Shown: piece after piece, positions 33,001-36,000 of the stretch
Layout of the letters: every line of letters begins with the position of its first letter
Position numbering within the stretch: position 1 is the stretch's first letter
Source: Candidatus Limnocylindrales bacterium
Lineage (GTDB): Bacteria; Chloroflexota; Limnocylindria; Limnocylindrales; CSP1-4
DNA length: 64,000 nt
Assembly (NCBI GenBank): GCA_036570185.1
Contig: DATCPH010000076.1
Span: 2,322-66,321 of the forward strand
Direction of reading: 5' to 3'
Position numbers: made by a program

Positions 33001-36000
33001 AGGGGTTCGAGGCGATGCGCCGTCTCGGGGTCGAACGGACGTACGGCGGCCTGCTCCTTGGTTATGCGGCAAAGGCCGAGTTCGTCCTCGGCCGTTGGGA
33101 CGAGGCGGACCAGACGACTGCCGGCGCCCTCGGTCGCGGGGCTCAGGGCCGCCCAGCCCTCTGGTTGCTCATCAACCGCGCTCGGCTCCTGACGGGACGC
33201 GGCCGCTTCAATGAAGCTGCCGAAGGCCTGAGCCGTGCCCGTTCAATCGAGGAAGACCTGGGTGGCACCGAGTTCTGGTCGCCACTGCTCGAAGCGATCG
33301 GCGAGCTCGGCGCCTGGCAGGGGCGGCCCGAGGCGGTGCGGCCGGCCGCCGATGAGGGTTTGCGGCGGGCGCTCGAATCGGGGCCGCCGGACCCGGCGCT
33401 GGCGTGGCTCGCGGCACTGGCGTTGCGGGCCGAGGCGGACGTCGCCGAGCAGGCGCGCTCTCGCCGCGACGAGGCCAGCGTCGCGGAGGCCCGACGCCGC
33501 GGCGCGGAGCTGATGGCGCGGATCCGTCGGGCGATCCCGGCCCTCGAGGCGGAGTCCGGCCGTGGTGCAGCCGACAGTCAGGAAGCATTCGGGGTAACTG
33601 ACCGTGCGCGCACGGCGGCCCTGTCACGCCTGTGCGACGCCGAGTACGAGCGACTCGAGGGCAAGAACCTCGCGGCGTCATGGGCAGCCGTCGCGGACGC
33701 CTGGACGTCGGCCGGTCGACCGTTTCCCACCGCATACGCCCGGTGGCGCCAGGCAGAAGCCGTCCTCGAAGGGGGAGGCCAGCGCGCCGACGCGAGGCCC
33801 GCCCTGCAAGAGGCGATGGCGATCGCCGATCGGCTCAGCGCCCAACCGCTTGCAACCGAGGTCGGACTTCTGGCCCGCCGCGCCCGGATCAATCTCGCCG
33901 GCGGGGAGGCGGGCGCCGAACAGGCCACGCTCGACGCCGGAGCCTTGACGGTCGACACCACCGCCCCATACGCATTTACCGCCCGCGAGCAGGAGGTGCT
34001 CCGACTCGTCGCCGGCGGCTGGACGAACCAGCAGATCGCGGACGCGCTCTTCATCAGTCGGAAGACCGCGAGCGTCCACGTCTCGAACATCCTGGGGAAG
34101 CTCGGTGTCGGCTCTCGGACCGAAGCGGCCGCGGTCGCCCACCGTCTCGGGCTCGGCCGCGACGCTCCGTCGCCGCCCGATTCGGTGGCTTCTGCGGGCG
34201 TCGCGGGTCGGTAATCTACGGTACCCTTGGCCCGTCCTTGAGAGCCGGTCCCGTGAGGCCGGCGTACCGGTCCAGAGAGGCCGGGTAAGGAGGCTCGATC
34301 GACCGTGTCCGGGTCAGTCCGCACCCACGTGTCTCCCCCGTGACGGCGCCGTCGATCGTTCCGCCGCTTCCGTGGTCAGATTCCGTCGTCGATCCGCGCG
34401 TCGGCAACCTTGGGCCGGCCCTCCTCGCCCTCGAAGACGGAACCGTCTTCCGTGGCGTCGCGTTCGGAGCGCCGGTCTCGGCCGGCGGCGACCTCGTCGC
34501 GAACACAAGCCAGACGGGCTACCAGGAAGTCTGCACAGATCCCTCGTACGCGGGCCAGGTCGTCGCGATGACCTACCCCCTCATCGGCAACTACGGGCGT
34601 CTGGAGGAGGACGACCAGAGCCTCCGGCCGTGGCTCCGGGGCCTCGTCGTGGCCACTGCGACCGCGGCCGTCCTCGAGGATGCTCGCCAGCTCGCGACGC
34701 TTCTGCGCGAGGCGGGGATCCCGGCCATCGCCGGTGTCGATACGCGGACGCTGGCCCGCCACCTCCGCGCGACGGGCTGCCTGCGCGGCGTCCTGACAGC
34801 GCCCGGCGAGGCCGATGAGGAGGCCGCGGTGGCGGCGGCGCGTGCGGTCGTCCGATGGGAGGACCAGGACTTCGTCTCGGAAGTCTCGCCGGCGGCGGTT
34901 GCCGACTTCGGCGACGCGGCCGAGGGCGGACCGCTTGTGGCGATCGTCGATTACGGGCTCAAGTCGAACATTGTGCGATCCCTGCGCCGCCGCGGCGCGC
35001 GGGTTCGGGTCCTGCCGCACACGGCAACCACCGCCGATGTCCTGGCGGCCGACGTGAGTGGCGTGATCCTCTCACCGGGGCCGGGCGATCCCGCGCGCCT
35101 CGAAGGACCGACGGCCATCGCCCGGGCAGCGATCGCGGACGGCCGGCCACTCCTCGGTATCTGCCTCGGCCACCAGGTCGTCGCGCGAGCGGCCGGCGCC
35201 GAGACGCGCCGCCTCCGTTTCGGGCATCACGGTGCGAACCACCCCGTTCGCGACCTCGACAGCGGGCTCGTCCAGGTCACCGCCCAGAATCACGAGGTCC
35301 AGGTCATGGCCGAGTCATTGCCGGCCGGCAGCGGGTTCCGCGTGAGCCAGGTAAACCTGAACGACGGCTCGGTCGAGGGGTTGCGCCATGCCAGGCTGCC
35401 GATCGAGACCGTCCAGTACCACCCGGAGGGCGGTCCCGGACCGCTCGACGCGCTGGCCGTCTTCGATCGCTTTGTCGCGGCCGCATCGACATACGCCGGG
35501 ATGGGCGGAACATCGCCACGGTGACGGTCGGCAAGCCCGAGTCGGTCCTGATCCTCGGATCGGGCCCGGTCGTCATCGGCCAGGCGGCAGAATTCGATTA
35601 CGCAGGAACCCAGGCCTGTCGCGCCCTGCGAGCGGACGGCGTCCGGACGATCCTGGTCAACTCCAATCCGGCCACGATCATGACCGACCCGTCCGTCGCC
35701 GACGTCGTCTACCTCGAGCCTCTGACCGTCGCGAGCGTGGAGGCGGTGATCGCCCGCGAGCGGCCCGAGGGACTCCTCGCCGGGCTCGGTGGCCAGACGG
35801 CGCTGAACCTGGCCATGGACCTCGCCCGGGCCGGCGTGTTGGATAGGTTTGGGGTGCGCCTCCTTGGGACGCCACTCGCCGCGATCGAGATGGCGGAGGA
35901 TCGCGAGGCCTTCCGATCCCTCCTGGACCGGATCGGGCAGCCTTACGCGCCGTCGGCGATCGTCGAGGGTGCCACGGAAGAGGAGCGCCGGGCTTCGGGG

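What the first reader, a model, noticed from the sequence alone, without database searches (positions are those of the whole stretch)
34216..34343. PyrR-type RNA motifs and a coupled leader uORF in front of a carAB pair that is detached from the pyr operon
Two tandem copies of the PyrR binding-loop consensus (UCCNGNGAGG) occur at 34245-34262 and 34267-34284: GGUCCCGUGAGGCCGG and GGUCCAGAGAGGCCGG. The second abuts a strong SD, UAAGGAGG. That SD is 47 nt from the carA GTG but 11 nt from a 12-codon uORF (GTG at 34305, MSGSVRTHVSPP). The uORF stop overlaps the carA start as GTGA.

This points to PyrR-mediated translational control relayed through uORF coupling, as in mycobacterial pyr leaders, rather than transcription attenuation. 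Neither pyrR nor pyrB/C is in the window; carAB instead lies directly after an ECF sigma and a 1062-aa LAL regulator.
Basis: partly seen in the sequence, partly recalled or inferred. Interest (0 to 1): 0.55.

Follow-up and report, generated by a model that had tools for sequence, protein, structure and literature searches.

The report
Tandem PyrR-binding leader before carAB
The carbamoyl-phosphate synthetase genes of this uncultured Chloroflexota bacterium are preceded by a conserved mRNA leader that very probably lets the pyrimidine sensor protein PyrR block translation; it is a known kind of switch in a doubled-hairpin layout that the public Rfam model does not detect.

Summary
Two 18-nt hairpins (34245-34262, 34267-34284), an SD, a 12-codon uORF and a GTGA stop/start overlap with carA are all present. 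The window is not actinobacterial. It comes from a Chloroflexota MAG of the Candidatus Limnocylindria type.

The leader is conserved upstream of carA in 76 of 80 related species. It also precedes carB wherever carB is split from carA. It always lies on the sense strand, between a -10 box and the SD.

The same hairpin+SD module, in single copy, precedes genuine pyrR, pyrB and pyrD genes in metagenomes. One 2.69-Mb Limnocylindria-type contig carries both pyrR-pyrB-pyrC (single hairpin) and carAB (tandem hairpins), 490 kb apart.

Rfam RF00515 misses the window. It scores 54.8 bits on one pyrR leader and hits only the binding loop (23 bits) on the Limnocylindria pyrR leader. The miss is therefore a limit of the model.

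Best explanation: PyrR binds the two hairpins, clamps an anti-SD:SD stem and blocks uORF translation. That shuts off the GTGA-coupled chain uORF-carA-carB.

This is a new variant of a known system. No binding experiment exists, and pyrR was not located in this genome itself.

The parts
34222..34227 (+). -10-like promoter box TACCCT (relatives: TGCTACCCT). It places the transcript 5' end about 7 nt downstream, just before the anti-SD.
   Evidence: Position and sequence are conserved in the aligned leaders of relatives. TANNNT lies at a fixed distance from hairpin 1, and TACCCT is the commonest form. The generic sigma-70 scan finds no full promoter, so this part is inferred.
34235..34239 (+). 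Anti-SD strand UCCUU, the 5' strand of closing stem P0. It corresponds to the CCUUU lower stem of the PyrR binding loop.
   Evidence: It pairs with AAGGA 34287-34291 in the MFE fold. The 5'-flank:SD duplex averages -10.9 kcal/mol against -7.3 for shuffled flanks, and is better in 92% of 113 leaders. At one position 77/78 leaders keep a pair, as U-A 56, G.U 13 or U.G 8.
34245..34262 (+). PyrR-type hairpin 1: stem CCGGUC/GGCCGG with a U.G pair, hexaloop CCGUGA.
   Evidence: Read. The stems are 98.9% paired across 113 leaders, with A-U and G.U replacements. The CCGUGA loop is also the commonest loop in pyrR/pyrB/pyrD leaders.
34263..34266 (+). 4-nt linker CGUA, which keeps the two hairpins in a 22-nt register.
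   Evidence: CGUA occurs in 55/113 leaders, and the 22-nt spacing is nearly invariant.
34267..34284 (+). PyrR-type hairpin 2: the same stem, with hexaloop CAGAGA. Its GUCCAGAGAGGC equals the RF00515 consensus core.
   Evidence: Read. The Rfam consensus line ucAGUCCaGaGAGGCUga is shown.
34287..34293 (+). Shine-Dalgarno AAGGAGG, the 3' strand of P0. It serves the uORF, not carA.
   Evidence: It lies 11 nt before GTG 34305 and 46 nt before carA GTG 34340. It is conserved in all aligned leaders.
34305..34343 (+). Leader uORF: GTG, 12 codons, TGA. The stop overlaps the carA start as GTGA.
   Evidence: A short uORF follows the SD in 100/111 related leaders (8-59 codons, median 22). The peptide sequence is not conserved. 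The stop overlaps (NTGA, 46 leaders) or abuts (TGAGTG, 15 leaders) the predicted carA start in 61 of 88 scorable cases.
34340..35524 (+). carA, the glutamine-hydrolysing carbamoyl-phosphate synthase small subunit. It has no SD of its own (upstream sequence CACGUGUCUCCCCC).
   Evidence: Pfam CPSase_sm_chain + GATase. NCBIfam TIGR01368 scores 369.7 bits against a cutoff of 307. GTG 34340 is the first start in frame.
35521..39102 (+). carB, the large subunit (1193 aa). Its GTG 35521 overlaps the carA stop 35522-35524 as GTGA, so uORF, carA and carB form one chain of overlapping stops and starts.

Best explanation
The 5' leader of the carAB mRNA is a binding site for PyrR, the pyrimidine-sensing RNA-binding protein. 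Here it takes a doubled form. Two near-identical PyrR-type hexaloop hairpins sit side by side inside one closing stem, formed by the anti-SD UCCUU at the mRNA 5' end and the AAGGA of the Shine-Dalgarno sequence.

When pyrimidine nucleotides are plentiful, PyrR (with UMP/UTP) binds the hairpins and stabilises the closing stem. The SD is then hidden or occluded, and the 12-codon leader ORF is not translated.

carA has no SD of its own, and its GTG overlaps the uORF stop (GTGA). Ribosomes therefore reach carA only by terminating on the uORF and restarting. carB is coupled to carA in the same way. Blocking the uORF silences the whole uORF-carA-carB chain.

When pyrimidines are scarce, PyrR is off, the weak 5-bp closing stem opens, and the chain is translated.

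What is shown: the anatomy, its conservation, its strand and position, its association with pyr genes, and the presence of PyrR in related genomes. What is inferred: PyrR binding, its nucleotide dependence, the repression, and reinitiation at carA.
For: 1. The elements are present and are not due to chance.
2. The leader is conserved upstream of carA in 76/80 Limnocylindria-type species, nearly always as two hairpins 22 nt apart. All hits in about 1 Mb of loci are on the carA strand.
3. Where carB is separated from carA, carB has its own copy of the leader (L125, L136 and L147).
4. The stems are 98.9% paired, with G-C to A-U and G.U replacements and invariant U.G pairs, which points to an RNA-level structure. 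The anti-SD:SD stem is supported by energy against shuffles and by U-A/G.U/U.G covariation.
5. A metagenome scan with the hairpin+SD pattern returned sites upstream of carA (49), carB (4) and pyrR (26, 43-62% identical to B. subtilis PyrR). It also returned pyrB and pyrD, and the remainder included truncated leaders and chance matches in coding DNA.
6. pyrR loci retrieved by protein identity alone, independently of the motif, all carry CCGGUCCCG(C/U)GAGGCCGG between CCUUUAA and GAAGGAGG, followed by a short leader ORF whose stop overlaps the pyrR start.
7. One contig (ERZ25039554 contig_3988, 2,693,466 bp) carries pyrR-pyrB-pyrC and carA-carB 490 kb apart, with a single hairpin before pyrR and tandem hairpins before carA. 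Four further contig lengths are shared between the PyrR and CarA hit lists. That PyrR passes the NCBIfam PyrR equivalog NF003549 (250 bits, cutoff 138).
8. RF00515 recognises the single-hairpin forms. L104 scores 54.8 bits over the full model, and the L206 binding loop scores 23.1 bits.
9. The window leader has no terminator, and there is no purine-rich SD before the carA GTG.
Against: - RF00515 gives no hit on the window at the gathering score, at E<=10 on 401 nt, or on 73 nt.
- pyrR was not found in the 64-kb window or located in this genome. Its presence is inferred from relatives whose CarA is about 77% identical.
- The free-RNA MFE prefers one long hairpin (-30.1 kcal/mol), in which the arms of the two hairpins pair with each other, over the two-hairpin junction (-22.6). 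The protein-binding form may therefore depend on co-transcriptional folding.
- The anti-SD:SD stem forms in both folds, so the ON state relies on that stem being weak.
- The hairpin 1 loop (CCGUGA) differs from the classical CAGAGA at two positions.
- In L071 and L073 an extra stem replaces the third loop base, which is unexpected for a hexaloop-reading protein.
- No expression, binding or ribosome data exist.
Confidence: 0.75

Rival explanations
1. PyrR-dependent transcription attenuation, rather than translational repression, is the main control in this window. Bound PyrR would prevent the leading ribosome from translating the uORF, so that a terminator or Rho stops transcription before carA.
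For: 37 of 111 related leaders carry a strong hairpin followed by a U-run inside the uORF (e.g. CCACCG..CGGUGG-CGUUUUC). The pyrR leaders of other lineages show the same feature.
Against: The window's 39-nt uORF has no terminator-like hairpin or U-run. Rho-dependent polarity on the untranslated leader cannot be excluded, but it would follow from the translational block.
Confidence: 0.1
2. The hairpins are bound by an RNA-binding factor other than PyrR, or act with PyrR plus a second factor. The resemblance to PyrR boxes would then reflect a shared ancestral module.
For: RF00515 does not score the window. The tandem or triple copies and the loop insertions are not features of described PyrR sites.
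Against: The identical hairpin precedes pyrR itself in the same genome. The regulon is confined to pyrimidine genes. PyrR is encoded in related genomes.
Confidence: 0.07
3. This is a metabolite-sensing tandem-hairpin riboswitch, in the style of guanidine-II, that needs no protein.
For: Two small conserved hairpins lie next to an SD. The stems and loops are strongly conserved.
Against: The hairpin matches the RF00515 binding-loop consensus. It works as a single copy before pyrR. Stem sequence is conserved far beyond what pairing requires, as expected for protein contact. No Rfam riboswitch family matches.
Confidence: 0.03
4. This is ribosome-mediated leader-peptide attenuation that senses an amino acid (arginine or histidine) or UTP-dependent coupling. 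The hairpins would be incidental.
For: A uORF is nearly universal (100/111 leaders). Some peptides contain His or Arg codons.
Against: The uORF peptide sequence and length are not conserved (8-59 codons). In about 8 relatives the uORF is fused in frame to carA. The His codons derive from the CCACC terminator stem. The window uORF has one Arg codon, one His codon and no terminator. The invariant parts are the hairpins and the SD, not the codons.
Confidence: 0.03
5. The two inverted repeats are a DNA operator for a transcription factor.
For: They are imperfect palindromes close to the promoter.
Against: There were 0 matches on the opposite strand in about 1 Mb. The repeats lie downstream of the -10 box in the transcribed leader. 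The invariant T.G position and the frequent G-C to G.U changes pair only in RNA.
Confidence: 0.02

Closest known systems
PyrR binding site (Rfam RF00515), Bacillus subtilis pyr attenuators
   Same: The hexaloop hairpin core is the same: UCCNGNGAGG, with hairpin 2 carrying GUCCAGAGAGGC. The CCUU...AAGG lower stem is present, the element lies before pyrimidine biosynthesis genes, and PyrR is the presumed effector.
   Different: The window has no antiterminator/terminator pair. Two hairpins are nested in one lower stem. The lower-stem 3' strand is the SD itself. The family model does not score the window.
Mycobacterium smegmatis pyr leader: PyrR-dependent translational repression (Fields & Switzer 2007, J Bacteriol 189:6236). 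The title was confirmed from the reference list read; the paper itself is not held.
   Same: It is a high-GC leader without a terminator, and the PyrR box sequesters a ribosome-binding site, so control is translational.
   Different: From my own knowledge, the mycobacterial site acts directly on the RBS of pyrR, the first gene of the operon, as a single hairpin. Here the RBS belongs to a uORF that relays to carA, carAB is a separate transcription unit, and the hairpin is doubled.
Thermus strain ZO5 pyr operon leader (Van de Casteele et al. 1997, J Bacteriol 179:3470). Cited from my own knowledge; not held in the library.
   Same: A PyrR box lies at the SD or start of a short leader ORF whose end overlaps the start of the first structural gene. 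PyrR is proposed to act by blocking leader translation. Many relatives of the window and the pyrR leaders also place a terminator inside the leader ORF, as in Thermus.
   Different: The window's leader has no terminator. The target is carAB rather than pyrR-pyrB. The hairpins are tandem.
Stand-alone PyrR-controlled carbamoyl-phosphate synthetase genes in lactic acid bacteria, e.g. Lactococcus lactis carB (own knowledge)
   Same: CPSase genes detached from the pyr operon nevertheless carry their own PyrR site.
   Different: Those sites are single and work through a terminator/antiterminator, with no uORF relay.

Membership tests
PyrR binding site (RF00515) | Upper hairpin with a U.G-containing stem and hexaloop, core consensus UCCaGaGAGG | tested here: met
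   Both hairpins fit UCCNGNGAGG. Hairpin 2 is identical to the consensus core shown. The loop spectrum overlaps that of pyrR/pyrB/pyrD leaders.
PyrR binding site (RF00515) | Lower stem CCUUU/AAAGG flanking the hairpin | tested here: met
   UCCUU 34235-34239 pairs with AAGGA 34287-34291. Support comes from energies against shuffles and from covariation. The stem encloses two hairpins instead of one.
PyrR binding site (RF00515) | Covariance-model score at or above the gathering threshold (54 bits) | tested here: not met
   There is no hit at the gathering score, at E<=10 on 401 nt, or on 73 nt. In the controls, the L104 pyrR leader scores 54.8 bits and the L206 pyrR leader scores 23.1 bits for model positions 5-36 only.
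PyrR binding site (RF00515) | Mutually exclusive antiterminator and intrinsic terminator downstream of the binding loop | tested here: not met
   No terminator-like site lies in 34050-34500. Terminator-like hairpins are present inside the uORF in 37/111 relatives, without an evident antiterminator.
PyrR binding site (RF00515) | Location in the 5' leader of pyrimidine biosynthesis or salvage genes | tested here: met
   The site lies upstream of carA/carB here and in relatives. The same module lies before pyrR, pyrB and pyrD elsewhere.
PyrR binding site (RF00515) | A PyrR protein encoded by the same genome | tested here: inconclusive
   This is met in related genomes. PyrR (NF003549, 250 bits) and this type of carA leader lie on one 2.69-Mb contig, and four more contig lengths are shared between the two hit lists. 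It is not shown for the window's own genome, because there is no pyrR in the 64 kb and the rest of the assembly could not be searched.
PyrR binding site (RF00515) | Specific PyrR binding enhanced by UMP/UTP and antagonised by PRPP | not testable with these tools
   This needs a binding assay.
Leader-ORF relay (Thermus ZO5-type PyrR control) | The PyrR box abuts or includes the SD of a short leader ORF whose stop overlaps the first structural gene's start | tested here: met
   The SD 34287-34293 is the 3' strand of the binding-loop stem. The uORF spans 34305-34343, and a GTGA overlap joins it to carA.
Leader-ORF relay (Thermus ZO5-type PyrR control) | An intrinsic terminator lies within the leader ORF, so that leader translation prevents termination | tested here: not met
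   It is absent from the window and present in about a third of relatives.

The most novel reading that the evidence does not exclude
The doubled PyrR box, occasionally tripled, nested in one anti-SD:SD stem could be a clade-specific cooperative switch. A PyrR tetramer, or two dimers, would bridge the two hairpins. This would give the carbamoyl-phosphate synthetase genes a steeper or more sensitive response than the single-box pyrR-pyrB-pyrC operon of the same genome. The competing long-hairpin fold of the free RNA would act as a kinetic trap that sharpens the switch. Variants with a stem inserted in the loop would imply that this PyrR reads the UCC/GAGG flanks rather than the whole hexaloop.
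Probability: 0.3. Interest if true: 0.5.

Novelty: new variant of a known kind. Interest (0 to 1): 0.35.

Why it matters
It extends PyrR-mediated RNA control to an abundant, uncultured class of soil and freshwater Chloroflexota. It also shows how carbamoyl-phosphate supply stays tied to pyrimidine status even though carAB is unlinked from pyrR-pyrB-pyrC.

It exposes a practical gap. The curated Rfam model is built around the Bacillus attenuator. It misses high-GC, terminator-free and tandem forms, so automated annotation would leave these leaders and their uORFs unmarked.

The family offers a natural series for studying how one protein-binding RNA module is rewired between translational repression and attenuation. 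The series includes one, two or three hairpins, leaders with or without a terminator in the uORF, and uORFs that are separate from or fused to carA.

Tried and rejected
- **Rfam.** Scans at the gathering score and at E<=10 on 401 nt and 73 nt gave no PyrR hit. The only hit was a spurious miRNA match at E=6. I did not take this as refutation, because controls on pyrR leaders show the model's limits.
- **Actinobacterial origin.** Rejected. The closest CarA relatives are 80 Chloroflexota / Ca. Limnocylindria MAGs.
- **Specialised carAB paralogue for the neighbouring ketosynthase/LAL cluster.** Rejected. The same carAB with the same leader sits in unrelated neighbourhoods in relatives.
- **pyrR near carA.** tblastn with a recalled B. 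subtilis PyrR found nothing in the window or in 80 loci.
- **PyrR paralogue next to carA in L213.** The 167-aa PRTase there is purine-PRTase-like, not PyrR.
- **Whole-leader fold significance.** The 131-nt fold is no better than shuffles (z = -0.5). The 64-nt core gives z = -2.4. Thermodynamics alone would not have flagged the element.
- **Literature.** The key papers could not be read. These are Turnbough & Switzer 2008, Van de Casteele 1997 and Fields & Switzer 2007. Statements about them rest on my own knowledge and, for the last, on the title in a reference list.
- **carA-start predictor.** My crude predictor (first start after a stop) probably undercounts stop/start overlaps, since it gave odd offsets in 27 of 88 leaders.
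Full report
**Observation**

- Hairpin 1 is CCGGTC[CCGTGA]GGCCGG at 34245-34262.
- Hairpin 2 is CCGGTC[CAGAGA]GGCCGG at 34267-34284, exactly 22 nt further on.
- TAAGGAGG lies at 34286-34293.
- GTG 34305 opens a 12-codon ORF that ends at TGA 34341-34343.
- carA starts at GTG 34340, so stop and start overlap as GTGA.

GTG 34340 is the first start codon after an in-frame stop, and that stop (TAA 34286-34288) lies inside the SD. 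The uORF is in another frame, so it cannot be an N-terminal extension of carA.

There is no purine-rich SD in front of the carA GTG (CACGUGUCUCCCCC-GUG). carB (GTG 35521) overlaps the carA stop (35522-35524), again as GTGA. uORF, carA and carB therefore form one chain of overlapping stops and starts.

The core GGTCCNGNGAGGCC occurs only at these two places in the 64-kb window. Chance expectation is 0.08 per window.

**Organism and context**

The exact CarA protein is encoded on a contig of MAG GCA_036794345.1. The 80 closest species-level relatives in GTDB have CarA 76-83% identical to the window's. All are Chloroflexota MAGs, many named Candidatus Limnocylindria or Limnocylindrales. The window is therefore not actinobacterial.

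carA and carB pass the NCBIfam equivalog cutoffs. The genes around carAB differ between relatives. carAB is thus an independent unit, not an accessory of the neighbouring ECF-sigma/LAL/ketosynthase genes.

**Conservation**

In 76 of the 80 related loci a UCCNRNGAGG motif lies within 250 nt upstream of carA. It is nearly always a pair exactly 22 nt apart. Of the four exceptions:
- two are cut off by contig ends;
- one (L073) has the motif with insertions;
- one (L058) has it before carB.

In about 1 Mb of these loci every match to the hairpin core is on the carA strand, and none is on the other strand.

Wherever carB is separated from carA, carB has its own copy of the leader (L029, L058, L063, L068; L125, L136, L147).

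**Architecture**

The aligned leaders share the following order:
1. a -10 box TGCTAnnnT (TACCCT in the window, 34222-34227);
2. about 7 nt later, UCCUU;
3. hairpin 1;
4. a 4-nt linker, mostly CGUA;
5. hairpin 2;
6. (G/A)AAGGAGG;
7. a start codon 3-14 nt later.

The hairpin stems are 98.9% paired across 113 distinct leaders. They show G-C to A-U and G.U replacements and an invariant U.G pair. The pattern used to collect the leaders fixed the three inner pairs, so only the outer pairs are informative.

The stems are conserved in sequence well beyond what pairing needs. That is expected for a protein contact surface.

The 5' UCCUU pairs with the AAGGA of the SD.
- Across leaders the flank:SD duplex averages -10.9 kcal/mol against -7.3 for shuffled flanks, and it is better in 92% of cases.
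- At one position 77 of 78 scorable leaders keep a pair, through U-A (56), G.U (13) or U.G (8).

The SD is thus the 3' strand of a stem that encloses both hairpins, and the anti-SD lies at the predicted 5' end of the mRNA.

**The uORF**

A short ORF follows the SD in 100 of 111 leaders (8-59 codons, median 22). Its peptide sequence is not conserved. In about eight relatives it is fused in frame to carA.

The stop overlaps the predicted carA start as NTGA in 46 cases and abuts it as TGAGTG in 15 cases. That makes 61 of the 88 cases in which my crude start predictor gave a relation. What is conserved is therefore the act of translating up to the carA start, not the peptide.

In 37 of 111 leaders the uORF contains a strong hairpin followed by a U-run, for example CCACCG...CGGUGG-CGUUUUC. 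The window's 39-nt uORF has no such hairpin, and the terminator scan finds nothing.

**Link to PyrR**

A metagenome scan with CGGTCCNGNGAGGCCG-N2-7-GGAGG returned 120 stretches. By tblastn the downstream gene was carA in 49 and carB in 4. It was pyrR in 26, at 43-62% identity to a B. subtilis PyrR sequence I recalled from memory. Further sites precede pyrB (aspartate carbamoyltransferase) and a pyrD-like gene. The rest includes truncated leaders and chance matches inside coding DNA.

In the pyrR leaders the hairpin is single and flanked by CCUUUAA and GAAGG(G)AGG. It is followed by a 9-30-codon leader ORF, often with a terminator hairpin, whose stop overlaps the pyrR start.

These sites were found with a pattern taken from the window, so I also retrieved pyrR loci by protein identity alone. 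All of them (L206, L207, L209, L210, L212) carry CCGGUCCCG(C/U)GAGGCCGG in the same setting, upstream of a pyrR-pyrB-pyrC operon that lacks carAB.

To tie PyrR to the clade, I searched with CarA from a locus of the same metagenome. Five contig lengths are shared between the PyrR and CarA hit lists: 2,046,574; 1,545,019; 2,693,466; 814,498; 2,077,134.

I verified one pair. ERZ25039554 contig_3988 carries pyrR-pyrB-pyrC near 1.39 Mb and carA-carB near 1.88 Mb. Before pyrR it has a single hairpin. Before carA it has tandem hairpins followed by a 22-codon uORF that holds a CCACCG..CGGUGG hairpin with a U-run and overlaps the carA start as ATGA.

That PyrR passes the NCBIfam PyrR equivalog. Its contig's CarA is 77% identical to the window's. 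That is within the 76-83% identity between the window's CarA and its 80 closest relatives.

**Why Rfam is silent**

RF00515 is a 115-position model: binding loop (about 3-36), antiterminator, terminator. Its gathering score is 54 bits.
- A pyrR leader from another lineage (L104) scores 54.8 bits over the full model.
- The Limnocylindria-type pyrR leader (L206) matches only positions 5-36, at 23.1 bits and E = 0.31.
- In the window a second hairpin of 22 nt interrupts the lower stem and there is no terminator. Nothing is reported even on a 73-nt slice.

The consensus line printed in those alignments (CCUUuUAAa..ucAGUCCaGaGAGGCUgaaAAGG) shows that the window carries all parts of the binding loop. 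The negative result reflects how the model was built, and I report it as a membership criterion that is not met.

**Mechanism**

Shown:
- the anatomy, its conservation, and its strand and position;
- the RNA-type pairing;
- the restriction to pyrimidine genes;
- a PyrR gene in related genomes;
- the lack of an SD for carA;
- the GTGA chain.

Inferred:
- PyrR with UMP/UTP binds both hairpins and stabilises the anti-SD:SD stem;
- the 30S subunit cannot load on the SD and the uORF is not translated;
- ribosomes never arrive at the carA GTG, so carA and the coupled carB stay untranslated.

With low pyrimidines the 5-bp closing stem, worth about -2.7 kcal/mol in the junction form, should open easily.

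One complication remains. The predicted free-RNA minimum is a single long hairpin (-30.1 kcal/mol), in which the 3' arm of hairpin 1 pairs with the 5' arm of hairpin 2. The two-hairpin junction is at -22.6 kcal/mol. The binding-competent form may therefore depend on co-transcriptional folding.

In the relatives that have a terminator inside the uORF, the same block of leader translation would also let the terminator form. As far as I recall, this is the layout proposed for the Thermus ZO5 pyr operon.

**Rivals**

- Attenuation as the main mechanism is unlikely for this window, because it has no terminator.
- A protein-free riboswitch, a DNA operator and amino-acid-sensing leader-peptide attenuation each conflict with several observations: a single-copy form before pyrR, strand specificity and U.G pairs, and non-conserved uORF codons.
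- A binding protein other than PyrR cannot be excluded without an assay. It is made unlikely by the identical hairpin in front of pyrR in the same genome.

**Comparison and novelty**

The element works like a PyrR binding loop used for translational repression, as named in the title of Fields & Switzer 2007 for M. smegmatis. It is relayed through a leader ORF as in Thermus (own knowledge; the papers are not held).

It differs in three ways: the binding hairpin is duplicated (triplicated in L064 and L071) inside one lower stem, it controls a detached carAB unit, and it falls outside the Rfam model.

I know of no description of nested tandem PyrR boxes, but I could not search the subscription literature. 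I class it as a new variant of a known kind. The interest is moderate. A specialist would expect PyrR control of carAB. The tandem layout, the clade-wide conservation in uncultured Chloroflexota and the annotation gap are the new points.

**Limits**

- No experiment supports binding or regulation.
- pyrR was not located in this genome itself.
- The promoter and transcription start are inferred from alignment only; the generic promoter scan finds nothing.
- Statistics on uORF/carA overlap depend on a simple start-codon rule.

Noticed in passing
L064 5868-5930; L071 3098-3200: Three PyrR-type hairpins, rather than two, lie before carA. In L064 they keep the same 22-nt register. The 22-nt unit seems prone to tandem duplication.
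   Followed up: partly
L073 about 5838-5925; L071 about 3135-3170: In these leaders the third base of the hexaloop, an otherwise invariant G, is replaced by an inserted stem-loop GCGACCG...CGGUCGC (UCCA-[stem]-AGAGG). This is unexpected if the protein reads an intact hexaloop.
   Followed up: no
L029 10640-10715: This carB leader has an extra hairpin of about 38 nt (GAGUCAAAG..CUUUGACUC) inserted between the two PyrR-type hairpins, and the first hairpin is degenerate.
   Followed up: no
window 34233-34296: The predicted free-RNA minimum is one long hairpin in which the arms of the two hairpins pair with each other (-30.1 kcal/mol). The two-hairpin junction is at -22.6 kcal/mol. This alternative fold is inherent to two near-identical CCGG-stemmed hairpins.
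   Followed up: partly
window 35521-39102: CarB is 1193 aa, more than 100 aa longer than the curated family profiles (1052-1058 positions). The Pfam domain positions suggest insertions after the first ATP-grasp domain and further on. Relatives have 1162-1193 aa.
   Followed up: no
window 24416-30338, mostly - strand: Upstream of the ECF sigma factor and LAL regulator lie two GlpP/G3P_antiterm-like genes, a ketosynthase, an SRPBCC/polyketide-cyclase-like gene, an FAD monooxygenase, a methyltransferase and an acetyltransferase. This may be a small aromatic-polyketide-like cluster in a Chloroflexota MAG.
   Followed up: no
window 31026-34214: The LAL-type regulator ORF is 1062 aa from the first ATG, but it is called as 1004 aa (start near 31200) in the public MAG. 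Its stop codon lies only 8 nt before the carA -10 box, and no terminator lies between them, so read-through transcripts into the leader are possible.
   Followed up: no
L043, L019, L038, L045, L096, L103, L116, L177 (carA leaders): In these relatives the SD-proximal start codon is in frame with carA, so there is no separate uORF. L043 is the closest relative of the window's uORF (VSGS...). The uORF and carA appear to be joined and separated by frameshifts during evolution.
   Followed up: partly
L100 about 8907-8932 (- strand): A hairpin+SD match lies in front of a UMP-kinase-like gene in a marine contig. It has AT-rich upstream DNA and no CCUUU flank. It could be a chance match or a further pyrimidine-related site.
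   Followed up: no
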